A stretch of DNA of 64,000 nt from assembly GCA_000004985.1 (NCBI GenBank), contig GG738846.1; one strand, written 5' to 3'. Positions 12,189 through 61,817 of this stretch are shown here, piece after piece. This DNA is from Naegleria gruberi (lineage: Eukaryota). Made by a program: the position numbers and the translations under genes. The notes beneath the pieces are model-generated. The model worked only from the letters and a program-made list of their open reading frames with translations. It had not been told where the DNA came from and ran no database searches. Position 1 is the stretch's first letter. Each line of letters starts with the position of its first letter.

Positions 12189-15100
12189 ATGAATATAAAA
12201 CACATTTGCTTCACAGCATTTAGCACGGAAGAAAGGGTAAGTAGTGATTTTTATTTAATGTATGATGATGATTTTGTTGATAGAAAGAATTATCGGAAAA
12301 GGCAATAAATCTGGGGCTTATTGTGGATACTAATTTCGAAATATATACCGAAGTATTGATTGCTCATAGAATCGGAACAGATAAATACAGGCTAGCAGCA
12401 GAAAAAAAGATACCAATCTTGAAGAAGGAGTGGTTGTTAGCCTGTGAAACAGAAGGAGAATTGGTGAGCATTGAAAAGTACAAACTTCCTTGTCTTTATA
12501 ACTGTACAATTTCTGTCACAGGATTCAAGGAAAAGGAGAGAAGCCAAATCAAAAATTTATGCGAGCAGAACGGAGCCTCCTATTCATCAAGTCTCACAAC
12601 AGGCTATACCCATTTAATTTGTTTGGTATGTTGTAAATAATAATATTGAGATTTTTCTAATCATCACAATAGAAGGGAGGTAGTGAAAAATTCCATTTTG
12701 CACTTTCGAATAATATTACCGTAGTGGGTATTGATTGGATTAAAAAGTCTGTAAAGGCAGGTTATGCTTTGGATGAAGCTGATTTTATTCTAAGCACCAT
12801 TTCAGAGGAAGAGAAACAACAATGTCTTGAAATTGCAAACAAGTAAGTAATATTTAATACCCAAACAATTTATCATATCAGATTCAAGCAGCAAATAGGA
12901 TTGGAAATGGAGGAGGTTGTAAAACCCTCAGTAAAACACTCAATTCTTCAAACTCAAGGAATGAAGTTGGATACATCAAGCACAGAATCATTCTCTCTGA
13001 GCTCACAATTTTCATCTGAGGATGTTCAACTTTCGCTCTTTAATGGATTAGTTTTCTATCTTGTTGGATTTCCTACAGACCTAGTAACTAGTGTGAGAAA
13101 ATTAATTAGAAAGTATGGTGGAAATGCCACTTTTACAACAAACAGTTTGAATTATATAATAGCTAACGACAATACACCACCTGAAACCATCAAAAATCTC
13201 AAAGAGAAACTCAATTATGATCCTCCAGTTGTTTCATACAAGTGGTTCCTTAATTGTATAGAGAGTATGCAAGTTTTACCTATTGAGGAGAAAAATGAAC
13301 AAAATGAAAAAATATCCTCAAGTACATTCGATGACAATAATATTGATATTGATATCAGCGAAGAGGATTTAGCTGATGCAATCCAATCTCAAACTTGTAT
13401 TACAAATGAGATGACACATGAAAAGAATGAAAAGCTTCTCTTTTCTAGCCTTTTGTTCAAGCTTGCTGACAATTTATTGTCACAAAAACAAATTGCTAAA
13501 TCTATAATTGAAAGGAATGGTGGAAAATTTGTGAATTTAGGACTAGATTATGATTTTATAATATATCCAGAGTCTTGCAAAACCCCTCGTGAAACTAACC
13601 CAAAAATAAGAACACTAAAATGGCTAAAAGACTCGGATGCTGAAAAAACTGTAAAGACTGCAGAGGAGTGTCTACTTTATGTGCCTACCTTCAGATTGGC
13701 TCTTGATAAAATCAAAACTGAAAATGAAAGGCTCCTCATTGTAATTTCCGGATACCCTGATCAAAAGCAGATATTACAATCTATTATTGAGGCTCTGGGT
13801 GGTTCCACTTCCAAGACTATGAGAAAAACTGCAGACATTCTGGTTTGTGAAAAGAAATCTGACAAGTCGGATTTTGCCATCAAACACCAGATACCAGTTG
13901 TTAATGAGAAATGGCTGTTTGATAGCTATAAGGCTGGATACTTCCTTTCTCCCACAGATTTTATTTTCAATCCTAACTCTACAAATTCTAACATCACACC
14001 CAATATTTCTGTGAAAACCAGCATCACAACCACCAACACTACAGACAAAAATATTAATAAGGATACCTCGACTAGCACCACACCGACAGAAAAAAAATCA
14101 ACCAATCTTCCTGTATTTGAAAAGACTGAAAAGGCAGATAAAGAGGATCAGATAACACCAACAAAGACTATAATACTCGATGAAAATGCACGAGATTCCA
14201 ATTCTCCTCATAGTACTACCAATATCCAACCCCCAACTATGCCAGCTCCTCCCACTCCTACCACTGTAATACCTGTTGATACTGCAGCTTTAACTAATTT
14301 CAAAAGCAAATTGCTCGATAAACTACCAAAGAGGAAGGATACCACTACAAAGGCAATAGAATTTTCTGAACAATCAAACGTACATTTTATTCCAAAAAAG
14401 AATTTGGAAAATCTGACATTTTTCAATTCTCAAAACACTTCAGAATCCAATAGTCTCTCACACTATGGAGGCACCTCTGAAGCAGAAAATGAATACAATG
14501 AAAAGGTAAAGAATGATAGAAATAGAACTATTCCAGATTTTGCTATGAGTCTTGGGACATTTGCTGAAACCCAAGTTATTGATCACGACAATGAGGTTCA
14601 AAAAATCAAATGGAAACAATCGAATGCAGAGAAACGTCACTTTTTACTTTCTTCATTAGCCGAAAAGCAAAAAAAGGAGGTCACAAAATACATCCAAGCC
14701 TTGGATGGAGTAATAGATGAATTGTACATACCCAATGTGACAACACATTTTATTGCTGGCTCAGCAGTTCAAACTGAGAAATTTCTATGTAGTGTAGCTG
14801 CAGGTATTTGGATTCTTTGCCCAAAATATGTTGAAGATAGTTACCAACAGCAATACTGGATACAAGAGGATGACTATCAATGGATCCATAAGCAAGCCGA
14901 TATTAAGTCAGATCAACAGGATGCTATCAGGTATCTCATAACTGCCCAAAAAATTAGGGATAACAAGACTAAGCCATTTTCAGGAATGTCAGTCTTTTTC
15001 GTTCAGAACACAAACCCTTCATTTGTTAGAATTATTACTGCAGGAGGTGGGGTGATACTCCCTTCCATAACTGATCCACGTCTCACTCATATTTTCGTAA

Positions 15101-15270
15101 AGGAGGCAAGTGACACTGAAGATATGAAAAAAGCATATCCCAATACTTTTGTGACCTATGAAGAGCAAATTAGCGGTTTTCTAATGACTGATGAAAAGAA
15201 AACTTCTAGAGAAACATCAAGTGAAGAAAGTGAAAAGAAGAAGAGGAAAGTAATAAAGAAAAGCAAATAA
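12189..15270 (+). CDS. TopBP1/Dpb11/Cut5-like multi-BRCT DNA replication and checkpoint protein, in a four-exon model
   Basis: Exons are 12189-12236, 12284-12625, 12673-12843 and 12889-15270. Introns are 12237-12283 (GTAAGT...TAG), 12626-12672 (GTATGT...TAG) and 12844-12888 (GTAAGT...AAG). Exons 1-3 encode two BRCT folds (ICFTAFSTEER..., LPCLYNCTISVTGFKEKERSQIKNLCEQNGASYSSSLTTGYTHLICL/KGG...). The large exon holds more BRCT-like units (LFNGLVFYLVGFP..., ERLLIVISGYPDQKQILQSIIEALGG..., HFIAGSAVQTEKFLCSVAAGIWILCPKYV...). Alternative: exons 1-3 form a separate small gene ending shortly after 12843. Confidence 0.6.
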
Positions 15271-15494: not shown

Positions 15495-15980
15495 TCAATA
15501 AAATACCAAATTATTTGACATTTCAATTATGTATTGATTACTAAATTTTACTCTACCTTTAAAATCATTAGAGCATTGTTTACAAGGAAACAAATCAGCA
15601 GTCATATAAACCCATTTCAATAATTTATCTTGATCCAAATCTTTATAATTCTGTACAAAAGCATGGAAAACATTCCAAACATGAGGTCCAATCATTTCTC
15701 TCGTTAGTGTTCCCTTATTTTCCTCTATATTACATTGTGTATTCAATGATGACGATTCCAATCTAGCAAAATACTCTTTCAAAAACAATTCCTCCTCTTC
15801 CTCCGATAAATAAACAGGAACAATCGATGACTTGTTATATTGTACATTAAATAAAACAAAAATAAATATCGTTGATAGAATTAGAATGATGAAAAATAAA
15901 TATTTTTGATGATGATGTTGATATTTGAATGGTGATCCCGATCCCGAAAGTACTGGCAGTGTTGTTGTTGAGGGGATCAT
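15495..15980 (-). CDS. Erv1/ALR-family FAD-linked sulfhydryl oxidase with an N-terminal membrane anchor (Erv2-like)
   Basis: 161-aa ORF. An N-terminal TM (YLFFIILILSTIFIFVLF) precedes the Erv/ALR core (...HVWNVFHAFVQNY...LFPCKQCSNDF...), including the CxxC redox pair. Confidence 0.65.
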   Translation of the reverse strand: MIPSTTTLPVLSGSGSPFKYQHHHQKYLFFIILILSTIFIFVLFNVQYNKSSIVPVYLSEEEEELFLKEYFARLESSSLNTQCNIEENKGTLTREMIGPHVWNVFHAFVQNYKDLDQDKLLKWVYMTADLFPCKQCSNDFKGRVKFSNQYIIEMSNNLVFY

Positions 15981-16167
15981 TTTTTTTGAAATTGTAAAGA
16001 TTTTGTATTACTCCTCGTTTGGTGATTTTTTTAATTACCTGAAATAATGTGTTAAATGTCAAAGGTAGCCGTCAGGTTTAAAGGTAGTTCTCCACAAACT
16101 AAAAATTATTAATTTCGCTCAAAATTTATCTAATTACCCGCGAATTGGTAATAAATTGAAAAAAAAA

Positions 16168-19100
16168 ATGTTGGCAAGAAAATTGTTTGGAAAATGCACA
16201 ACAAATAATCGCCATCTCGTATTAAAATCATCGCAATATGCCACAAAATTCTACTCCACAAGTGGTGCTGAAAAAAATTTAGTTGCAAATATTGAGAGTT
16301 GTATAAGAAATATTAATAATCATTATCGGAGTAAGAAAGAAAAAGAATTTAATAACGGTTTGCTGGATTTGAAGCAATTTTGCTCCCAATTAAATGATGC
16401 AACGGAAAGGAAACTAAATGAAAAATCGTGGAATTTTTTGATTCAACAATTTTGTAGAAACGAAGCCTTTAGTGATGAAGCTACATTTTGGTTCAGAAGA
16501 GTTATGAAAGAGAAGAAATTAGCCACTCCAAATTCATTCACTTTGACTGCGATATTAAAATCATTCTCTACTATTGGTGAATTAGATATGTGTGAAGAAA
16601 TTCTACAAGAATTAGAAAGTCAAGGACTATGCAACGTTTTCTCATACATATACTACACAAAAGCTTGTCTTCAAAATGGAAACACTGAGAAGGCTTTCAG
16701 TGTTATTGGACGTATGGAGAGTAAACAAATTGAACCAAGTTTTGGAATATACATTCCTCTTCTAAAGGAAGCAACTAACCAAAATAATGTGGAAGTTGGA
16801 TTGAAACTTTATGATATGATCAAAAAAAGTAACTTGGCAAGTTTTCAATTATCATCTTGTATCGCCACTTTTGCTTTGAAGGTGAACCGACCAGATATTG
16901 CAATCGAAGAATACGAAAAGATTAAACAGAGTGAATTGATGAATGTTATAACTTGGACATGTTTAATTCAAGCATACATTCAACAAAATGATACTGAGAA
17001 AGCAATAGATACGCTTATTGACATGAAAAAACATGGTATATACCCAGATTCTGCAACATTCACAATTTTATTGAGTGCATGTGCAAATTCTAATATGTAT
17101 GAAGAAGGAGTTAAAATTCATGAACTTGCAAAACAAACACTCAAAGATTTCACAATTGGATTATCAAACACAATTATTAATTTTTACACAAAATGTGGTT
17201 ATTCAAATATTGCCATAGAAGAATGTGAAAAATTGAAACAGAACGGATTGATGAATGTTGTAACTTGGACATGTTTAATTCAAGCATACATTCAACAAAA
17301 TGACATTGAGAAAGCAATAGATATGATTATTGACATGAAAAAGCATGGTATTTACCCAGATTCTGCAACATTCACAATTTTATTGAGTGCATGTGCAAAT
17401 TCTAATATGTATGAAGAAGGAGTTAAAATTCATGAACTTGCAAAACAAACACTCAAAGATTTTCAATTAGACTATCAACAGCAACTATTAATTTTTACAC
17501 TAAATGTGGTTATTCAAATATTGCCATAGAAGAATGTGAAAAATTGAAACAGAAAGGATTGATGAATGTTATAACTTGGACATGTTTAATTCAAGCATAC
17601 ATTCAACAAAATGATATTGAGAAAGCAATGAATACGATTATTGACATGAAAAACAGTGGTGTTATACCTAGATTCAACAACATTCACAATTTTATTGAGT
17701 GCATGTGCAAATTCTAATATGTATGAAGAAGGAGTTAAAATTCATGAACTTGCAAAACAAACACTCAAAGATTTCACAATTGAATTATCAAACACAATTA
17801 TTAATTTTTACACAAAATGTGGTTATTCAAATATTGCAATCGAAGAATACGAAAAGATTAAACAGAGTGAATTGATGAATGTTATAACTTGGACATGTTT
17901 AATTCAAGCATACATTCAACAAAATGATATTGAGAAAGCAATAGATACGCTTATTGACATGAAAAAACATGGTATATACCCAGATTCTGCAACATTCACA
18001 ATTTTATTGAGTGCATGTGCAAATTCTAATATGTATGAAGAAGGAGTTAAAATTCATGAACTTGCAAAACAAACACTCAAAGATTTCACAATTGAATTAT
18101 CCAACACAACTATTAATTTTTACACTAAATGTGGTTATTCAAATATTGCCATTGAAGAATGTGAAAAATTGAAACAGAACGGATTGATGAATGTTGTAAC
18201 TTGGACATGTTTAATTCAAGCATACATTCAACAAAATGACATTGAGAAAGCAATAGATATGATTATTGACATGAAAAAGCATGGTATATACCCAGATTCT
18301 GCAACATTCACAATTTTATTGAGTGCATGTGCAAAATCTAATATGTATGAAGAAGGAGTTAAAATTCATGAACTTGCAAAACAAACACTCAAAATATTTT
18401 CTTTAGAGCTATCGACAGCGACTATTAATTTTTATACTAAATGTGGTTATTCAAATATTGCCATTGAAGAATGTGAAAAATTGAAACAGAAAGGATTGAT
18501 GAATGTTATAACTTGGACATGTTTAATTCAAGCATACATTCAACAAAATGACGTTGAGAAAGCACTGAATACGATTACTAATATGAAAAACAGTGGTGTT
18601 GTACCTAACTCAACAACATTCACAATTTTATTGAGTGCATGTGCAAATTCTAATATGTATGAAGAAGGAGTTAAAATTCATGAACTTGCAAAACAAACTC
18701 TCAAAGTTTTCACAATTGAATTATCGCAACACAATTATTAATTTTTACACAAAATGTGGTTATCCAAATATTGCAATCGAAGAATATGAAAAGATTAAAC
18801 AGAGTGAATTGATGAATGTTATAACTTGGACATGTTTAATTCAAGCATACATTCAACAAAATGACATTGATAAAGCAATAGATACGCTTATTGACATGAA
18901 AAAACATGGTATATACCCAGATTCTGCAACATTCACAATTTTATTGAGTGAATGTGCAAATTCTAATATGTATGAAGAAGGAGTTAAAATTCATGAACTT
19001 GCAAAACAAACTCTCAAAGATTTCACAATTGAATTATCAAACACAATTATTAATTTTTACACTAAATGTGGTTATTCAAATATTGCCATAGAAGAATGTG

Positions 19101-21364
19101 AAAAATTGAAACAGAAAGGATTGATGAATGTTGTAACTTGGACATGTTTAATTCAAGCATACATTCAACAAAATGACATTGAGAAAGCAATAGATATGAT
19201 TATTGACATGAAAAAGAGTGGTGTTTACCTAGATTCAACAACATTCACAATTTTATTGAGTGCATGTGCAAATTCTAATATGTATGAAGAAGGAGTTAAA
19301 ATTCATGAACTTGCAAAACAAACTCTCAAAGATTTCACATTTGAACTATCAGACACAATTATTAATTTTTACACAAAATGTGGTTATTCAAATATCGCCA
19401 TTGAAGAATGTGAAAAACTGAAACATAACGGATTGATGAATGTTGTAACTTGGAACTGTTTAATTCAAGCATACATTCAACAAAATGACATTGAGAAAGC
19501 AATAGATATGATTATTGACATGAAAAAGCATGGTGTTGTACCTAATTCAACAACATTCACAATTTTATTGAGTGCATGCGCAAATTCTAATATGTATGAA
19601 GAAGGAGTTAAAATTCATGAACTTGCAAAACAAACACTCAAAGTATTTTCTTTAGAGCTATCGACAGCGACTATTAATTTTTATACTAAATGTGGTTATT
19701 CAAATATCGCTATTGAGGAATGTGAAAAACTGAAACAGAAAGGATTGATGAATGTTGTAACTTGGACATGTTTAATTCAAGCATACATTCAACAAAATGA
19801 TATTGAGAAAGCAATGAATACGATTATTAATATGAAAAAGAGTGGTGTTGTACCTAATTCAACAACATTCACAATTTTATTGAGTGCATGTGCAAATTCT
19901 AATATGTATGAAGAAGGAGTTAAAATTCATGAACTTGCAAAACAAACACTCAAAGATTTCACAATTGAATTATCAAACACAATTATTAATTTTTACACAA
20001 AATGTGGTTATTCAAATATTGCCATAGAAGAATGTGAAAAATTGAAACAGAACGGATTGATGAATGTTGTAACTTGGAACTGTTTAATTCAAGCATACAT
20101 TCAACAAAATGATATGTCAAACACCCACACTCCATCAGATGCAGAATATGGGTTGAATAAGGCATTTAGAGTCTATCAGGAAATGAAACAAAAAAACTTT
20201 GAACCTAACAGTTATACCTTCAGCATTTTAATGGCAGCGTGTGGAGAATATGTAGCTTCAAACATTGGAATTCAAATAATTGAGGATATAAAACAAAACA
20301 ACATGGATATCTATGAAGAGGTTATTTCTGGTATGGTTTATTTTTACTCTAGAGTTGGCCAAAAAGAAACTGCACAACAATTATTTGATAATCTTGTTAG
20401 AAAGAAGGATGAATCAAAAGAACCACTTTCTATCGTCACTTATACTAATATGCTTTCTTGTTATGCACAACACGGTAAAGGATATGAAGCTCAAAAACTG
20501 TTCGATGAAATTGTTGAAAAGAAAGTCAAAATTGATGAAATAACTCTAATAGTATTATTGAATGCATATTCACATTGTGGAATGGTTGAAGAAGCAATTC
20601 AATTATATAATGATATGAAACCAAAACATAATTTTAATCCAACCCTCTCTATTGATTGCGTTATGATTGATGTGTTTTCTCGTGCAGGAAGATTTGAGGA
20701 AGCAGAAAAACTAATAGGTAGTCGCAATGATATTGGTTTGTGGGGCGCATTGATGGGAGGATGTAGAAAATTCAATAAGATTGAACTTGGTGAAAAAGTA
20801 TTTAACAAAATGACAACAATTGATGAAAAACTAACCTCACCCTATATATTATTATCCCATATCTACACATATCATGGATTAAACGAAAAAGCTAACAAAT
20901 TGCAAAAATTGATGCGAAAAAGAGGTATAAAAAAATTGCCTGGTATTGTGTATCATGAAGAAAATGGCATTGTATTTAGATTTATTTCTGGATCTGACGA
21001 CCACAAAGAGGACTCTCAAATGTTTGCACAAATTGAGAGAATGAGAGATGAAATATTTCGTAAAATTATTAAGGCTGGATATAGACCAGATACAAGATGG
21101 GTTACCAGAACCGAATCATTGTCAGAGGAGGAAAAAGTTAATTTGCTTTATCGACATGCTGAAAAAACAGCCATTGCTCACGCCTTTGTTTTGAATCCAA
21201 ATAGAAAGAAAATAGTATTAACAAAAAATCTGAGAGTTTGCAATGATTGCCATTCGGCTACTACGTACATTTCAAAAGTGATGGATGTTGAAATTATTGT
21301 AAGAGATGCCAATAGGTATCATCATTTCAAAGATGGAAAATGTAGTTGTGGTGGTTATTGGTAA
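16168..21364 (+). CDS. PLS-class pentatricopeptide repeat protein with C-terminal E and DYW (cytidine deaminase) domains. It is a putative mitochondrial C-to-U RNA editing factor. The reading frame as assembled is broken by three 1-nt indels, so it is either a pseudogene or an assembly error.
   Basis: The ATG at 16168 starts a presequence-like N-terminus (MLARKLFGKCTTNNRHLVLKSSQYATKFYSTSG). The C-terminus is a DYW domain: HAEKTAIAHAFVLN...NLRVCNDCHSATTYISKVMDVEIIVRDANRYHHFKDGKCSCGGYW, with the HxE and CxxCH zinc-binding motifs. The body is about ten tandem 104-aa P-L-S triplets. Frame breaks sit near 17480 (-1), 17670 (+1) and 18725 (+1) and split the gene into track ORFs 16156-17529, 17656-18741 and 18635-21364. 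Confidence 0.8.
16892..20110 (+). repeat. Tandem array of about 10.3 copies of a 312-bp coding repeat, each one PPR P-L-S triplet, roughly 90% or more identical, arranged in a higher-order A-B-B' pattern
   Basis: The unit anchor 'caaatattgc' recurs at 17204, 17515, 17828, 18140, 18452, 18765, 19077, 19389, 19701 and 20013. The first unit starts near 16892 with a diverged left flank (gatattgcaatcgaag). Spacings are 312 nt, except 311 and 313 where the single-nucleotide indels lie. Units alternate between type A (IAIEEYEKIKQSELMNVITW...IDTLIDMKKHGIYPDSAT) and type B (IAIEECEKLKQ(N/K)GLMNVVTW...IDMIIDMKK...). Confidence 0.85.
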
Positions 21365-21480
21365 ATTTGTTCCAAATACACAACATGATACAAATTATTA
21401 AACTAATTTTGATAAATTCCAATTTTGGTGATCTTCACACACTTACAACTAATAATCATAAATGTGTGGCATTCAGATAG

Positions 21481-21555
21481 AATATTAGAAACAATAATAA
21501 ACAATACCAATAATGAATTCGAAACAACAATTGGTTTATTATTGTTTCTAATATT
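21481..21555. repeat. Perfect 22-bp inverted repeat (hairpin) with a 31-nt loop in the PPR/TMEM144 intergenic region
   Basis: The left arm at 21481-21502 (aatattagaaacaataataaac) is the exact reverse complement of the right arm at 21534-21555 (gtttattattgtttctaatatt). It lies 117 nt downstream of the PPR-DYW stop and about 400 nt upstream of the next gene. Confidence 0.85.
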
Positions 21556-21962
21556 CTTGCCTTTGTTTCGTCTTGGCAAATGTCTTGTTGAAAAACTAAA
21601 CTGTAAAGACAGTTATATCCATCAACTTCACAAAATGACAAACTTCCCACAATAGGAAATTTGTCCTCCTTTGCTCTTCATACTATTTTAGACTCTTCAA
21701 AACATCATTCACACTTTACAAAACCTGAAGGTTAGGCATCTAACCACAACATTTTAATTATTGATAAATATCAATAATCAATTACCAAGGACAAATCCAC
21801 TCGCAACAATTCGCACCTCACATGCAATAATAATCCACTCACTCTTTCACATTTTATGAAACAAGCGCACACGCTCACAAAAAAGTTGCCAAGATTTTCA
21901 AAAAAAAACAAATCACGCATTGCAAACTCATTGTTTTGTTTCTGTTTGGAGAAGAGAAGAAA

Positions 21963-23312
21963 ATGGTTTTAAATTCATCAACGTTAAACAGGATGAGTAG
22001 TACAATCTCGAGGAGGTTGATCGTTTGTGGTGCTGCTACCATCATGATTTTGTGCGTAATTTTGAGTGGTGTTACTTCTGCTACTACAAGTAATAGCAAT
22101 AATAACAAAATTTCGGAATCAACACTGATTACTACAACAGCAACTAGTAGTGACAATGACTCATCATCAACCACCACAACAACAATATTGGGTTATGTTG
22201 GATCATTGATTGCCATTCTCTTCTATGGAAGTAACTATGTAGTCACAAAGAAATATCCAACAGGAGATGGTGTTGCCTTTTCCTGGTTAATGTCTAATGG
22301 TATTTTCTTTGTTGGATTCATATCATTGGCTCTCACAACTGATAACAAGTTGATTTTTGTTCCGACTGGATTGTTGAGTGGAAGTATTTGGGCCACTGGT
22401 AATTTACTTGTCATTCCAATTATTAAATGTGTTGGGCTGGGTTTAGGATTTTTATTGTGGAGTGGTGCTAACTTGATTGGTGGATATTGTGTTGGTAAAT
22501 TGGGATTGTTTGGTGTTGAGAAGGAGGTGATTGATAGTTTGGGAGGTAATATTATGAACATTTTTGGTTTAGTTTGTGGTATTATCAGTTTATTATTATT
22601 CTTCTTTATTAAACCCCCACAGGAAAAGAAGAAGAATGATGATGAAACACCTCAAACTGAAGAAAATACAACTGAAGCTGCCACTGAGGGTACTTCATTG
22701 TTAAATAATGAAAATGAACCTCAACAAAATCTCAATGATGAAAAGTCAATCAATGATGACATTGTCGTTCAAGATGTTAGCAAGTTTAAAGCTTTTATGA
22801 ACAAGTTGAAAAAGATTTCTCAACATCCAGCATTTGTCAGATTATTAGGTATTGGTATGGCCATTACTGCAGGTTGTTTGTATGCTGTCAATTTGACTCC
22901 TTTCAAATTGTGGGTCCAACATGAAATTTACATTCACAACAAATCTCCAGGTCCTATTGATTTTGCCTTCTCTCATTTCAGTGGAATTTATTTATTGAAC
23001 TCGGCTGTATTTTTGATTTACATTTTAATCAAAAAGAATCAACCAGAAATTTATCCAAACATGATTATGAGTAGTATTATTAGTGGCGCCATGTGGGGTA
23101 TTGCTACTATTGGTTTATTGTACAGTTCTTCTTACTTGGGCTTTACTGTTGGTTATCCACTTGTTGCTATTGGACCATCTTTGGTTTCTACTTTCTGGAA
23201 CGTTTGTGTTTTTAGAGAAATTACTGGTGTTAGAAATTTGATCATCTTATCGTGCTCTTTGTTATTTGCTCTTATTGGTGTCATTTTGTTGGCTGTTAGT
23301 AAGATTATTTAA
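21963..23312 (+). CDS. TMEM144-family multi-pass membrane protein (putative sugar-transport-related 10-TM family)
   Basis: The track ORF begins at TTG 21936; the first ATG is 21963. Comparison with human TMEM144 recalled from memory shows collinear conserved blocks. [23 protein letters not shown] matches [47 protein letters not shown] matches [41 protein letters not shown] matches FAHFSGIFL. The C-terminus is ...LLAVSKII. Confidence 0.7.
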   Translation: [449 protein letters not shown]

Positions 23313-59513: not shown

Positions 59514-60730
59514 ATGAGTTTATTGTGGACGTTCATGTTGCAACCCATGTTGGTGATTGGTAGTGCTCTATCAGTGGTTCACTTACTTCACTACTTGTTT
59601 ATTCAAAGAAAAAAGATGAAACATTCAATGGAAGGAAAAACTGTTTTAATTACTGGAGGATCGACTGGTATTGGATTAGGTAGGTGTTTGTAATGGTGTT
59701 GAATCATTCCGATCATGATGATTATTTTGAATATTATATTTAATAATAATATTATTATAATATTGTATTTATAACATTAATTGTATTTATTGTATTTAAT
59801 AATGATGATGAAATTTTAAAATAATATATAGGTATTGGTATTGAATGTTTAAAACAAAAGGCTAAAACATTGATTATTGTTGCAAGAAATCAAGAAAAAT
59901 TGGAACAAGCAAAGAAGGAATTACAAGAATATTGTAAAGGAAAGCAAGAAGTTATTATTCATTCATGTGATGTTGGTGATGAGGATCAAGTTGACAAGAT
60001 GATTGAACATTTATATTCAAGTGCTATTGAAAATGTTGATTATTTATTTATTAACCAAGGATTGTCAATTCCAGGATATATTCTCTCACAAAAGATGGAG
60101 GATTTCAAATATCAAATGAATTTGAATTATTTCAGTCATGTCATGCTTTCAAAGAAATTTATTCCTAAAATGATGGATTTGGAAGCTGCTAGTGGTGGAG
60201 CATTTGATAGACATGTCATTTTCGTTGGATCAGCATGTTCAATTGCATCATTTGTTGGATATGGATCTTATTCACCAACCAAGTATGCTATTAAGGGTTA
60301 TGCTGAAGCTCTTCGTAATGAATTATTGGGAACTAATATTAGAGTTCACTTGGCTTTACCTGTTGATACAGATACTGAAGGATTCAAGAAGGAAAATGAA
60401 ACAAAACCAAAGGAATGTGCAATCTTGTCAAGTCTCTCTGGATTACAAACCTATATTGAATCAGGTTCAATGCTTGTAAAGAATTTATTGAAATCTTCCA
60501 TTCAATTCTATGTCATTTCCTCATTCGACACCTACCTTCAAATTGTTGGAGCTACTCTTGGTGTAGGACCATGTGTAAATAGATTCAACTATCCAATGAT
60601 TGATATGTTCACATCAAGTTTATTCATTCCTTCTGTCATTTTGAGAAGTATTGCCTATTATTTCGATCATGTAAGTGAAAAGGCTGCACACACTCATAGA
60701 AATGAAATTTTCAAACAATTACAAAAATAA
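59514..60730 (+). CDS. KDSR: 3-ketodihydrosphingosine reductase (KDSR/Tsc10, SDR family), two exons
   Basis: Exon 1 is 59514-59679, intron 59680-59831 (GTAGGT...TATAG, phase 1), exon 2 59832-60730. The N-terminal TM precedes ...[45 protein letters not shown]... The region ...VIFVGSACSIASFVGYGSYSPTKYAIKGYAEALRNELLGTNIRVHLALPVDTDTEGFKKENETKP... matches human KDSR ...[65 protein letters not shown]... Confidence 0.8.
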
Positions 60731-60884
60731 CAACTCCCATTATTTATCAATAGTTTATATAATATCTATACGAAACCATACTGAACATTTTACAAAGTGT
60801 TGCTGTATCAATATTGAGATACCTATTGGTGTTGCTGATTACAATTTTCCATTACAATCAAGGTTCACCAAAGTAACAAAAAAA

Positions 60885-61817
60885 ATGTCACAACACGAAC
60901 ACTACAACCACACACTAATTTTCAATGAAAATAATCATCATTCAATGTGGCCAAATCAATTTGATCCGACACTGAAAAGTAAATTCATTGAAAAGATGCA
61001 AAAACCAAAAATTACGAATTTTTCATACAAGTTTGAAATTTTGCAAAAGTTTGGTCCCATTCTAACCCAACAATTTGAAATGTGCTATTCAAAGAATTTA
61101 ATGATAGCAAGGACCATGCTTTCGAATGCATCTCTTCTCTTTTTCGATATGAATACAAAGGAATTGCTTCAATCAGTGCCATTGAAATTAAATCCAGAAT
61201 TAGATAAGTTTATTTTGGAGGAAAGAAGAGACGGCTCTTGTTATATCTATGCAATATTGAGAGATTATTCAGTGGCTTGCTATGATTTGGATGAAATTAT
61301 GAAATTGCAGAAGTTTGGAAATCCAAAATGGAGGGTCGAATCGATGGGAACTGAAATTGATATTTCCATTAAGCATTCAATTCTATTTGTGATTCATCCA
61401 TTCAGAGAGGAAGTAACACTGTTGCGAGTAGAGGATGGAAGTGTTCTTGCTAGACATCCTTGTTTGTGGGGAAAGAATGAGTCAAAAGTTTTCAAATTCT
61501 GTGATGATGAGAATTCAACACTGTTTCACACTCTGGGGAATGAAGGAGTTATTGAAGGATTGAAATTTAATAAGGATTTCTCTCAAATAATTGAGAAATT
61601 CAAGATACCATATCATGATTGGTTGGTCAGTTGTATTGTTTTTGAGGAACAGACAGGAAATATGATTGCTTTGGGAAATCAATTAACTATATTTGATAAT
61701 AAGCTTAATATTTTACATGAGTTTTCAAATGTAGGAGGAAATCACATGAGATTTGATAGAAAACAGGGACATGTATTAATATGTGGAAGTCCCTCACATA
61801 TTATTGTCTACAAATGA
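60885..61817 (+). CDS. Hypothetical 310-aa protein
   Basis: The track ORF (60675-61817) begins with a non-ATG start inside the KDSR 3' end. The first in-frame ATG is 60885 (MSQHEHYNHTLIF...). No family recognised. Confidence 0.45.
   Translation: MSQHEHYNHTLIFNENNHHSMWPNQFDPTLKSKFIEKMQKPKITNFSYKFEILQKFGPILTQQFEMCYSKNLMIARTMLSNASLLFFDMNTKELLQSVPLKLNPELDKFILEERRDGSCYIYAILRDYSVACYDLDEIMKLQKFGNPKWRVESMGTEIDISIKHSILFVIHPFREEVTLLRVEDGSVLARHPCLWGKNESKVFKFCDDENSTLFHTLGNEGVIEGLKFNKDFSQIIEKFKIPYHDWLVSCIVFEEQTGNMIALGNQLTIFDNKLNILHEFSNVGGNHMRFDRKQGHVLICGSPSHIIVYK

What the first reader, a model, noticed from the sequence alone, without database searches (positions are those of the whole stretch)
16168..21364. 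PPR-DYW RNA-editing factor built from about ten near-identical tandem P-L-S triplets
PLS-class PPR proteins follow a one-repeat-per-nucleotide recognition code, so their repeats normally differ from one another. Here about 3.2 kb of the gene is a tandem array of 312-bp units, each one 104-aa P-L-S triplet. The units are roughly 90% or more identical at the DNA level. They are arranged in a higher-order A-B-B' pattern (EEYEKIKQSEL / EECEKLKQNGL / EECEKLKQKGL). A diverged N-terminal region with a mitochondrial-type presequence precedes the array, and unique PPR motifs plus E and DYW domains follow it. This implies very recent amplification or concerted evolution by gene conversion. It also predicts an RNA target with a periodic sequence, or an editing factor whose specificity is evolving fast. 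A DYW editing factor of any kind is restricted to land plants and a few protist lineages including heteroloboseans. Caveat: an array like this is prone to assembly collapse or expansion.
Basis: partly seen in the sequence, partly recalled or inferred. Interest (0 to 1): 0.85.

Follow-up and report, generated by a model that had tools for sequence, protein, structure and literature searches.

The report
Naegleria PPR-DYW gene with amplified repeats
This is one of the already-catalogued plant-type RNA-editing-factor (PPR-DYW) genes of the amoeba Naegleria gruberi, unusual in that its RNA-binding part is ten very similar 104-residue modules, but in the reference sequence it is broken by three one-base frameshifts and is annotated as two separate proteins.

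Summary
The repeat is real. There is one 312-bp tandem array at 16895-20112, with 10.3 copies and 91% matches. Each unit encodes a P-L-S triplet of PPR motifs. Unique PPR motifs and E1, E2 and DYW deaminase domains follow it, with all zinc ligands present. The window is Naegleria gruberi nuclear DNA.

The public annotation therefore splits the locus into NAEGRDRAFT_45423 and NAEGRDRAFT_45424. Correcting the three indels gives one 1731-aa ORF with no stop codon.

The units are mosaics. Scaffold segments are homogenised even at synonymous sites. The short segments carrying RNA-contact residues (positions 2, 5 and last) stay diverse. Overall dN/dS between units is 0.31, so the array evolved as coding sequence. 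All three frameshifts lie in these diversity hot spots. That fits either a merged-haplotype or misassembly consensus error, or recombination between units. I cannot tell which.

The predicted RNA target is quasi-periodic (G/A-N-Y/A).

DYW-type PPR genes in Naegleria have been known since 2010. Paralogues and Sphagnum proteins show the same tendency to a lesser degree. This is a modestly interesting extreme case of a known kind.

The parts
16168..21364 (+). Whole locus. After removing three 1-bp indels it reads as a single 1731-aa ORF with no in-frame stop.
   Evidence: 100% identical to N. gruberi XP_002682649.1 and XP_002682650.1.
16168..16272 (+). Putative mitochondrial presequence (MLARKLFGKCTTNNRHLVLKSSQYATKFYSTSG...).
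   Evidence: 5 K/R and 0 D/E in the first 20 aa; 6 K/R and 1 D/E in the first 35 aa. This is an inference from composition; no predictor was run.
16273..16944 (+). Diverged N-terminal region with degenerate PPR motifs. It includes one diverged P-L-S triplet (U0) that ends in ...EEYEKIKQSELMN.
   Evidence: P0002 begins with a homologous diverged triplet.
16945..20065 (+). Ten tandem 312-bp units, each one 104-aa P(35)-L(35)-S(34) triplet. Unit starts are 16945, 17257, 17568, 17881, 18193, 18505, 18818, 19130, 19442 and 19754.
   Evidence: TRF array 16895-20112; unit register; identity matrix; alignment to designer PPR 4wn4, PLS9-PPR 5iww and synthetic PPR-DYW 9kfx.
16903..18775 (+). Two copies of a 936-bp (three-unit) higher-order repeat, 96.4% identical. 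A third, more diverged copy lies at 18776-19711 (92-93%).
17458..17470 (+). Frameshift 1: one base missing (GATTTT^CAATTAGA), at codon L35 of unit 2.
   Evidence: Unit length is 311 bp; alignment; position mapped.
17658..17675 (+). Frameshift 2: one extra base (GGTGTTATACCTAGATTC), at codons P33-P35 of unit 3. The sequence reads as the left half of a VVPN-type unit joined to the right half of a VYLD-type unit.
   Evidence: Unit length is 313 bp; alignment.
18720..18734 (+). Frameshift 3: one extra base (ATTATCGCAACACAA), at codons S4/S5 of unit 6. It causes a stop at 18739-18741.
20066..20737 (+). Unique C-terminal PPR motifs: P with a 13-aa insert (20066-20209), L (20210-20314), S (20315-20431), P2 (20432-20536), L2 (20537-20644), S2 (20645-20737).
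20738..20935 (+). E1 (20738-20839) and E2 (20840-20935) motifs.
   Evidence: Pfam E_motif, E=1.2e-13. Aligns with E1/E2 of synthetic PPR-DYW 9kfx. Coordinates.
20936..21361 (+). DYW cytidine-deaminase domain. It has a PG box (LPGIVYHEENGIVFRF), HAE (21155-21163), CNDCH (21239-21253), HHF...CSC and a terminal GYW.
   Evidence: Pfam DYW_deaminase, E=1.2e-37. PDB matches 9kfx (3.2e-61), 7o4e (1.8e-28) and 7w86 (2.2e-25), with residue-level alignment. Coordinates.
17348..17671 (+). The 'intron' (GT...AG, 324 nt) in the public gene model NAEGRDRAFT_45423. It removes about one unit and so bypasses frameshifts 1 and 2. It is most likely a gene-prediction device and not a real intron.
   Evidence: Mapping of P0004 onto the window.

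Best explanation
The locus is a nuclear gene of Naegleria gruberi for a PLS-class PPR protein carrying E1, E2 and a DYW cytidine deaminase. That makes it a member of the plant-type C-to-U RNA-editing-factor family already described in this amoeba.

How it would work (inferred from what is known of the family):
- An N-terminal presequence sends the protein to the mitochondrion.
- About 41 PPR motifs form a superhelix that reads single-stranded RNA one nucleotide per motif, through residues 5 and last.
- The DYW domain deaminates a cytidine a few nucleotides 3' of the bound stretch.

How the array arose (shown by the sequence):
- The PPR tract was built by tandem duplication of a 312-bp P-L-S module, including a three-module 936-bp duplication.
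- It then underwent patchy concerted evolution. Gene conversion or unequal exchange homogenised the scaffold segments (P helix a and the L core) even at synonymous sites, and shuffled segments between units.
- The short segments bearing the RNA-contact residues stayed diverse.
- The whole array remained under purifying selection.

The three one-base frameshifts in the reference sequence sit exactly in those diverse segments. I judge them somewhat more likely to be consensus errors from merging reads of different units or haplotypes than real lesions. On that reading the gene is intact in the organism, or was until very recently. The two public models, 45423 and 45424, are halves of one gene.
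For: Identity:
- 100% match to N. gruberi XP_002682650.1 and XP_002682649.1 on a 1.0-Mb scaffold.
- Pfam finds PPR_2 at 1e-107, E_motif at 1.2e-13 and DYW_deaminase at 1.2e-37.
- E1-E2-DYW aligns end to end with the solved synthetic PPR-DYW 9kfx (3.2e-61). HxE, CxxCH and HH...CxC are all conserved.
- Each unit aligns to three consecutive 35-aa designer PPR repeats, which fixes the positions of residues 5 and last.

Array:
-.

Selection:
- Mean dN/dS between units is 0.31.
- Segment S8-S23 has pS 0.30 but pN 0.005.
- There are no stop codons in 1731 corrected codons.

Concerted evolution and mosaicism:
- 22 of 45 unit pairs are significant in a permutation test of runs of shared polymorphic sites.
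- pS is 0.06-0.07 in P1-16 and L1-32, against 0.21-0.46 elsewhere.
- Units within a gene are more alike than units between paralogues: 87% within this gene, 65% within P0002, 74% within P0005, and 46-54% between genes.

Contact residues:
- 7 of the 9 positions 2/5/last vary between units, against 25 of the other 95 columns (Fisher p=0.0034).

Frameshifts:
- All three lie in the top 11% most diverse positions of the unit, p about 0.0014.
- Frameshift 2 is the join expected when two unit types that differ by compensating indels are merged.
- Other genes in the window have long uninterrupted ORFs.
Against: - There is no independent sequence of this locus. Neither protein search found another assembly, transcript or Logan contig. 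Exact look-ups failed. The frameshifts therefore cannot be shown to be errors.
- In-vivo recombination between units would leave the same signature as a chimeric consensus.
- N. gruberi has about 11 DYW genes but only two verified editing sites. A redundant copy could well be decaying.
- The predicted target has G at every third position for most of 30 nt. That is an unlikely sequence in a mitochondrial genome that is 75-78% A+T.
- Expression, mitochondrial import, RNA binding and editing are all untested.
Confidence: 0.5

Rival explanations
1. The frameshifts are real and the locus is a recently inactivated PPR-DYW pseudogene or a gene broken in two. It would yield at most a presequence-bearing PPR fragment without deaminase, and a DYW fragment without targeting signal. 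The tandem array made it prone to recombination-generated indels.
For: - There are three indels within 1.3 kb of a Sanger-based assembly whose other genes are intact.
- N. gruberi has an excess of DYW genes (about 11) over known editing sites (2).
- The indels lie at junctions between unit types, where in-vivo exchange between units that differ by compensating indels would also create frameshifts.
- The predicted G-rich periodic target is implausible in an AT-rich mitochondrial genome.
Against: - No stop codon has accumulated in 1731 codons.
- dN/dS is 0.23-0.39 even for the youngest unit pairs 1/4/7. Any inactivation must therefore be very recent.
- Locating all three indels in polymorphic hot spots (p about 0.0014) is what consensus-calling over mixed reads would also produce.
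Confidence: 0.35
2. The array as assembled is substantially wrong: the copy number, order or mosaic pattern of the units is an assembly artefact (collapse, expansion or chimeric joining). The true gene has fewer or differently arranged units.
For: - 312-bp units at 84-98% identity are hard to assemble.
- The units look mosaic and frameshifts sit at type junctions.
- The paralogue pair P0002/P0003 is 100% identical at both ends. Inside the PLS array the pair differs by a 146-aa gap and 4-5% mismatches, and P0003 sits on a 7,960-bp contig. Arrays of this family therefore did cause assembly or haplotype problems.
Against: - Units differ enough (mean 9%; the 936-bp blocks differ by 3.6%) for 700-800-nt Sanger reads to be placed. 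This is an inference.
- Several units have private substitutions, for example AGA (Arg) in unit 2, GAA in unit 7 and CAT in unit 8.
- The array has unique flanks on both sides within a 1.0-Mb scaffold.
Confidence: 0.15
3. The protein is intact but is not a site-specific editing factor. A very long, quasi-periodic PPR tract would bind RNA with low sequence specificity, for example coding RNA with purine-N-pyrimidine periodicity. It would act in RNA stabilisation, cleavage or processing, with the DYW domain serving another role.
For: - The code residues give a period-3 pattern G/A-N-Y/A over 30 nt.
- Published discussion notes that surplus heterolobosean DYW proteins may have roles other than editing.
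Against: - All catalytic and zinc-binding residues of the deaminase are conserved, and the E1/E2 linker is canonical.
- Contact residues do differ between units at 7 of 9 code positions. This argues for a specific target, not a generic one.
Confidence: 0.1

Closest known systems
DYW-type PPR proteins of Naegleria gruberi (Knoop & Ruedinger 2010, FEBS Lett; Ruedinger et al. 2011, RNA; cited through PMC4202320)
   Same: Same organism and same family. It shares the PLS tract + E + DYW architecture. The paralogues P0002/P0003, P0005, P0006 and P0150 are 41-56% identical. They also have PLS triplets that resemble each other more within a gene than between genes.
   Different: This gene has the highest inter-triplet identity (87% aa mean, against 65% in P0002 and 74% in P0005) and the longest array. 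It carries three frameshifts and is split into two models in the public annotation. I could not read the 2010/2011 papers, so I cannot say whether they comment on this gene's array.
Land-plant PLS-E-DYW organellar editing factors (e.g. Arabidopsis OTP86 DYW domain 7o4e, DYW1 7w86; moss PPR56, PMC10482289)
   Same: The order of motifs is the same: P-L-S ... P2-L2-S2-E1-E2-DYW. The deaminase signatures HxE and CxxCH and the second metal site are the same. T/N at position 5 and D/N at the last position match the plant code.
   Different: The S motif is 34 aa instead of about 31. The PG box is degenerate (PGIVYHEENGIVFRF). The terminal tripeptide is GYW. Repeats are 76-97% identical to each other, whereas the median self-identity among 120 homologues is 28%.
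Synthetic / designer PLS-DYW proteins built from consensus triplets (PDB 9kfx/9kfy; PLS9-PPR 5iww)
   Same: A run of near-identical P-L-S triplets differs mainly at code residues and is followed by P2-L2-S2-E1-E2-DYW. The best PDB match of the C-terminal half is 9kfx, 3.2e-61.
   Different: This one is natural, not designed. It has ten triplets, whereas the designed proteins are much shorter (612 and 347 residues). The scaffold also varies at 25 non-code columns.
Sphagnum PPR-DYW proteins with highly similar PLS triplets (clusters of P0010 and P0058; KAH8948869.1, KAH8945214.1 etc.)
   Same: Natural PLS-DYW proteins whose successive triplets are 69-78% identical at a lag of 101 aa.
   Different: They are plant proteins with a 101-aa triplet. 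They have lower inter-unit identity and shorter arrays. They are only 30% identical to this protein.

Membership tests
PPR proteins, PLS class | Tandem ~35-aa helix-turn-helix PPR motifs recognised by PPR profile models. | tested here: met
   Pfam PPR_2 scores 5.5e-49, 5.3e-58 and 9.7e-108 on the three ORF pieces, and PPR scores 1.9e-76. Units align to designer PPR structures 4wn4, 6een and 5i9f.
PPR proteins, PLS class | Regular alternation of P, L and S motif variants (plant norm 35 / 35-36 / 31-32 aa) with their signature residues. | tested here: met
   Each 104-aa unit is P 35 (VVTWxCLIQAY...PD/N) + L 35 (sxTFTILLSAC...EEGxxIH) + S 34 (xELSxTxINFYTKCG...). It aligns in one stretch to PLS9-PPR 5iww and to the PLS part of 9kfx. 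The S motif is 3 aa longer than the plant norm. Plant motif lengths are from established knowledge (Cheng et al. 2016), not checked here.
PPR proteins, PLS class | Specificity residues at positions 5 and last drawn from the known code (T/N/S at 5; D/N/S at last). | tested here: met
   P motifs: TD x7, TN x2, NN x1. S motifs: NN x6, TN x3, DN x1. The register was fixed by alignment to cPPR 4wn4.
PPR proteins, PLS class | Sequence-specific binding of single-stranded RNA. | not testable with these tools
   This needs EMSA/RIP. The N. gruberi mitochondrial genome (AF288092) could not be fetched for a code search.
DYW-type cytidine deaminase editing factors | E1/E2 motifs between the PPR tract and the deaminase. 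| tested here: met
   Pfam E_motif at 1.2e-13. Residue-by-residue alignment with E1/E2 of 9kfx.
DYW-type cytidine deaminase editing factors | DYW deaminase domain with the catalytic zinc signature HxE...CxxC(H). | tested here: met
   PF14432 at 1.2e-37 over profile positions 1-93 of 93. HAE and CNDCH align with HSE and CGDCH of 9kfx and 7o4e.
DYW-type cytidine deaminase editing factors | Second metal site (two His plus C-terminal CxC) and a C-terminal aromatic tripeptide (D/G-Y/F-W). | tested here: met
   ...RYHHFKDGKCSCGGYW aligns with ...RFHHFKDGVCSCGDYW. The feature is as defined in PMC3239186. The tripeptide is GYW, not DYW.
DYW-type cytidine deaminase editing factors | PG box (PGxSWIEvxgxxHxF) at the E2/DYW border. 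| tested here: inconclusive
   LPGIVYHEENGIVFRF keeps PG and the final F, but lacks the W and the H. The motif is as given in PMC4202320.
DYW-type cytidine deaminase editing factors | One continuous ORF joining targeting signal, PPR tract and deaminase. | tested here: not met
   As assembled, three 1-bp indels split the ORF. It is continuous only after correction. Whether the indels are real is unresolved.
DYW-type cytidine deaminase editing factors | Demonstrated C-to-U editing of an organellar transcript. | not testable with these tools
   Two sites are known in N. gruberi mitochondria. No factor has been assigned to them, to my knowledge.
N. gruberi DYW-type PPR gene family (published 2010) | Encoded in the N. 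gruberi nuclear genome and carrying a DYW domain. | tested here: met
   P0001 = XP_002682650.1 / NAEGRDRAFT_45424, 100% identical.
N. gruberi DYW-type PPR gene family (published 2010) | Listed among the 10-11 genes of the original survey. | not tested
   The original papers are not held. No held paper mentions the accessions.

The most novel reading that the evidence does not exclude
The gene is intact in vivo and shows a natural cassette mode of PPR evolution. Gene conversion keeps the structural scaffold of ten P-L-S modules nearly identical. The few-codon segments holding the RNA-contact residues (P32-35, L33-S7) are kept diverse and are reshuffled among modules. An editing factor's specificity can then be re-programmed quickly, much as in human-designed PLS-DYW editors. 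Its target would be a roughly 40-nt quasi-periodic (G/A-N-Y/A)n element in a mitochondrial transcript.
Probability: 0.15. Interest if true: 0.6.

Novelty: already known. Interest (0 to 1): 0.3.

Why it matters
This gene's array is the most self-similar among the 120 homologues compared here.

If the gene is intact, it shows that tandem module duplication plus patchy gene conversion can build a roughly 41-motif RNA-binding tract, with variation concentrated at the code positions. That bears on how PPR specificity evolves. It is also relevant to designers of programmable PPR-DYW RNA editors, who use the same architecture.

It is a concrete candidate for one of the two known Naegleria editing sites or for an undiscovered one.

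On the practical side, two public protein entries (XP_002682649.1 and XP_002682650.1) are fragments of one locus and should be merged or flagged.

The presence of a DYW editing factor in a heterolobosean is not new.

Tried and rejected
Things that led nowhere:
1. Fetching DNA for the paralogues P0002/P0003 and other copies of P0001 by exact protein look-up. Nothing is on record, so paralogue comparisons are at protein level only.
2. Reading Ruedinger et al. 2011 (PMC3222119) and Schallenberg-Ruedinger et al. 2013 (PMC3858438). Neither is held. Knoop & Ruedinger 2010 has no PMC id in the reference list I saw.
3. Searching the paper library for the locus tags and accessions. There were zero hits. 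The Acrasis supplements had none either.
4. Looking for an orthologue in other Naegleria species using the unique C-terminal 432 aa. Only N. gruberi paralogues (49-50%), an unnamed ENA protein (44%) and plants appeared. I do not take this as proof of absence.
5. Looking for independent reads or transcripts (Logan/ENA) of this gene. None were among the hits.

Ideas considered and rejected:
- A different helical-repeat family (TPR or similar). TPR hits are far weaker than PPR hits and fall below the curated cut-offs as single stretches.
- Real introns bridging the frameshifts. One-base shifts cannot be introns. The 324-nt GT..AG 'intron' of model 45423 removes a whole in-phase unit and looks like a predictor's workaround.
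- Programmed ribosomal frameshifting. There would have to be three sites of both signs, and nothing supports it.
- A purely recent burst of duplication. This is contradicted by dS up to 0.47 and by pS 0.30 in S8-S23.

The code-position enrichment is only marginal if position 2 is left out (4 of 6, p=0.07).

Full report
WHAT IS THERE

The window is nuclear DNA of Naegleria gruberi. The C-terminal ORF is 100% identical to 'predicted protein [Naegleria gruberi]' on a 1,001,995-bp scaffold. That protein is XP_002682650.1 / EFC49906.1 / NAEGRDRAFT_45424. The upstream part is XP_002682649.1 / NAEGRDRAFT_45423.

Tandem Repeats Finder reports one array at 16895-20112, with period 312, 10.3 copies, 91% matches and score 5168. 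It is the only tandem repeat scoring at least 80 in the 64 kb. No other ORF in the window matches a profile built from the units.

The neighbours are ordinary nuclear genes: a BRCT-domain protein, an Erv1/Alr-like protein and a TMEM144-family transporter. The window is densely packed with long uninterrupted ORFs.

THE READING FRAME

The locus is not one ORF as assembled. Frame 0 is open from 16156 to 17527. Frame 2 is open across 17433-17715. Frame 0 is open again from 17647 to 18739. Frame 1 is open from 18632 to 21362.

Unit lengths measured from a conserved anchor are 312, 311, 313, 312, 312, 313, 312, 312, 312 and 312. Aligning the units pins the cause on three single-base indels:
- one base missing near 17463;
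- one extra base near 17664;
- one extra base near 18726.

Removing them gives a single ORF from the ATG at 16168 to the stop at 21362-21364. It is 1731 codons long and has no internal stop.

The public annotation handles the problem with two truncated models. Model 45423 consists of 16168-17347 joined to 17672-18741. Its predicted GT..AG 'intron' of 324 nt removes about one unit and so skips the first two frameshifts. The model ends at the stop created by the third. Model 45424 starts at an internal Met at 18896.

DOMAIN ARCHITECTURE

Pfam gives PPR_2 up to 1e-107, PPR at 2e-76, E_motif at 1.2e-13 and DYW_deaminase at 1.2e-37, covering the whole profile.

The last 208 residues align end to end with the solved synthetic PPR-DYW protein 9kfx (3.2e-61). 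They also align with the DYW domains of OTP86 (7o4e) and DYW1 (7w86). Conserved features are HxE (HAE), CxxCH (CNDCH) and the second metal site HH...CSC. The terminal tripeptide is GYW. The PG box is degenerate (LPGIVYHEENGIVFRF). The definitions of these features are from PMC3239186 and PMC4202320.

Three units align to designer PPR proteins (4wn4, 3.3e-66) as nine consecutive 35-residue repeats. They also align in one stretch to PLS9-PPR (5iww) and to 9kfx. This confirms three PPR motifs per unit and fixes the register of positions 5 and last.

Each 104-aa unit is P (35) + L (35) + S (34), with the signature residues of plant P1, L1 and S1 motifs. The S motif is three residues longer than usual.

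Upstream lie a basic, acid-free N-terminus (5 K/R and 0 D/E in 20 aa) and a diverged P-L-S triplet. The N-terminus is a plausible mitochondrial presequence, but this is only inferred.

Downstream come, in order:
- P with a 13-aa insert;
- L and S;
- P2, L2 and S2;
- E1 and E2;
- DYW.

I count about 41 PPR-like motifs in all.

HOW SIMILAR ARE THE UNITS, AND IS THAT UNUSUAL?

DNA identity between the ten units is 83.7-98.1%, with a mean of about 91%. Units 1, 4 and 7 are 97-98% identical.

The 936-bp blocks 16903-17838 and 17839-18775 are 96.4% identical. The third block is 92-93% identical to them.

I measured self-identity at the triplet lag for 120 homologues. The median is 0.28 and the 90th percentile is 0.50. 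This gene reaches 0.89. The next highest are Sphagnum PPR-DYW proteins (0.78 and 0.69) and the N. gruberi paralogue P0002 (0.75). The hit list is biased towards repeat-rich proteins because the query itself is repetitive.

At protein level, units are 87% identical within this gene, 65% within P0002 and 74% within P0005. Between genes they are only 46-54% identical. Within-gene homogeneity is thus a property of the whole N. gruberi family, and this gene is its extreme.

EVOLUTIONARY SIGNATURES

Selection. Nei-Gojobori dN/dS between units averages 0.31. dS ranges from 0.05 (units 1/4/7) to 0.47.

Heterogeneity along the unit. Synonymous diversity is very uneven:
- pS is 0.07 in P1-16 and 0.06 in L1-32.
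- pS is 0.21 in P17-35, 0.46 in L33-S7, 0.30 in S8-23 and 0.22 in S24-34.
- S8-23 (INFYTKCGYSNIAIEE) has pN 0.005 against pS 0.30. This means long-standing, strong purifying selection.

The low synonymous diversity of the P helix a and the L core points to homogenisation by gene conversion, not just protein-level constraint.

Mosaicism. I permuted the order of the 68 polymorphic columns. In 22 of 45 unit pairs the longest run of shared states is significant at p<0.05, and several pairs have p<=0.0005.

Segment types also occur in all four combinations: IYPD or VVPN at the end of P, with LSNTI or LSTAT at the start of S. The units are recombinant mosaics.

The picture is old duplicates, a more recent three-unit duplication, and patchy concerted evolution. 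It is not a single very recent burst.

RNA-CONTACT RESIDUES

32 of 104 amino-acid columns vary between units. Of the nine positions 2, 5 and last in the three motifs, seven vary, against 25 of the other 95 columns (Fisher p=0.0034). With positions 5 and last only, four of six vary (p=0.07).

I applied the established PPR code (TD=G, TN=A, NN=C/U; Barkan 2012, Yagi 2013 and Takenaka 2013, from my own knowledge). The results are:
- P motifs read G,G,G,G,G,A,G,G,Y,A.
- S motifs read Y,A,Y,Y,A,Y,Y,?,A,Y.
- L motifs (TT/TS) are undefined.

The predicted target is quasi-periodic, (G/A-n-Y/A)x10, but it is not a perfect repeat. Naegleria mitochondrial genomes are 74.8-77.8% A+T, so a stretch with G at every third position would be rare there. 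I could not obtain the mitochondrial sequence to test this.

THE FRAMESHIFTS

In unit coordinates the three indels fall at codon L35 (unit 2), P33 (unit 3) and S4/S5 (unit 6). These are the very segments that differ most between unit types. All three lie in the top 11% of a 9-nt smoothed diversity profile, so the chance that all three fall there is about 0.0014.

Frameshift 2 is instructive:
- VVPN-type units read GGTGTTGTACCTA-ATTC.
- The VYLD-type unit 8 reads GGTG-TTTACCTAGATTC.
- Unit 3 reads GGTGTTATACCTAGATTC, which carries both 'extra' bases.

This is what results when two unit types that differ by compensating indels are joined between the indels. The join could happen in the cell, by conversion or crossing-over. 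It could also happen in the computer, by consensus over reads from two units or haplotypes.

The paralogue pair P0002/P0003 shows that such arrays did trouble the assembly or differ between haplotypes. The two are 100% identical over the first 294 and last 155 residues. Inside the array they are 95-96% identical with a 146-aa gap. P0003 sits on a 7,960-bp contig.

Against long-standing decay: there is no stop codon in 1731 codons, and dN/dS is 0.23-0.39 even between the youngest units.

I therefore put roughly 50% on an intact (or only just damaged) gene with consensus errors. I put 35% on real, recent pseudogenisation. I put 15% on more serious misassembly of the array, which overlaps the first possibility and is not a separate slice of the total. 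No independent sequence of the locus was found.

COMPARISON WITH WHAT IS KNOWN

[quoted passage not shown] Two mitochondrial C-to-U sites were verified in 2011. The surplus of factors over sites has been discussed, and so has horizontal transfer from plants (PMC4202320; PMC3239186). This gene carries a DYW domain and is in the public protein set, so it belongs to that known family.

I could not read the original papers. No held paper cites the accessions. I cannot say whether the unusual array, or the fact that 45423 and 45424 are one locus, has been pointed out before.

Architecturally the protein is a canonical PLS-E1-E2-DYW factor. What stands out is the length of the array and the near-identity of its modules. 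This makes it resemble the synthetic PLS-DYW editors built from consensus triplets (9kfx, 5iww).

VERDICT

The array and domains are real. The single continuous ORF is not.

PPR-DYW identity, concerted evolution and a quasi-periodic code all hold. Recency and uniqueness are overstated, and the frameshifts and prior knowledge were missed.

Novelty: already known as a kind and as a gene family. The patchy homogenisation, with diversity retained at code positions, is a modestly interesting detail.

Interest: 0.3.

Noticed in passing
Proteins P0002 (1231 aa, 395-kb scaffold) and P0003 (1041 aa, 7,960-bp contig) of N. gruberi; not in the window: These are the closest paralogues. They are 100% identical to each other over the first 294 and last 155 residues. 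Inside their PLS array they are 95-96% identical with a 146-aa gap, and a 34-aa gap lies in E1/E2. This suggests an unmerged haplotype or very recent duplicate whose array differs in unit number, or gene-model or assembly artefacts like those at this locus.
   Followed up: partly
window 21479-21502 and 21534-21557: A perfect 24-nt inverted repeat (AGAATATTAGAAACAATAATAAAC / GTTTATTATTGTTTCTAATATTCT) with a 31-nt spacer starts 115 nt downstream of the PPR-DYW stop codon, in the 570-bp spacer before the next gene. Its function is unknown. It could be a hairpin at the 3' end of the transcript or the remnant of a small mobile element.
   Followed up: no
window 12901-15270 (+), 15495-15980 (-), 21936-23312 (+): The flanking genes are unrelated to RNA editing. 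They are a multi-BRCT-domain protein (PF00533, 1.4e-32), a small Erv1/Alr-like sulfhydryl oxidase candidate (PF04777, 3e-06, just above the cut-off) and a TMEM144-family transporter (PF07857, 9.4e-77).
   Followed up: partly
window 59870-60730 and 60675-61817 (+): Two long ORFs on the same strand overlap by about 55 nt in different frames. This could be a short intron, or another frameshift in the assembly. If it is a frameshift, it would bear on the base-level accuracy of this scaffold.
   Followed up: no
Homologue lists: No protein named as Naegleria fowleri or N. lovaniensis appeared among the best 120 hits of either search. The nearest non-gruberi relatives were unnamed ENA/JGI proteins (P0024 37%, P0151 44%). 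A large set of nearly identical 545-aa DYW proteins from Logan/ENA assemblies (33% identity) comes from an unidentified, frequently sequenced organism.
   Followed up: no
window 17257-17567 (unit 2), around 17475-17490: Relative to the other LSTAT-type units (5 and 9), unit 2 has TCAACAGCAACT where they have TCGACAGCGACT. These are two CpG-to-CpA changes within 12 nt, next to frameshift 1.
   Followed up: no
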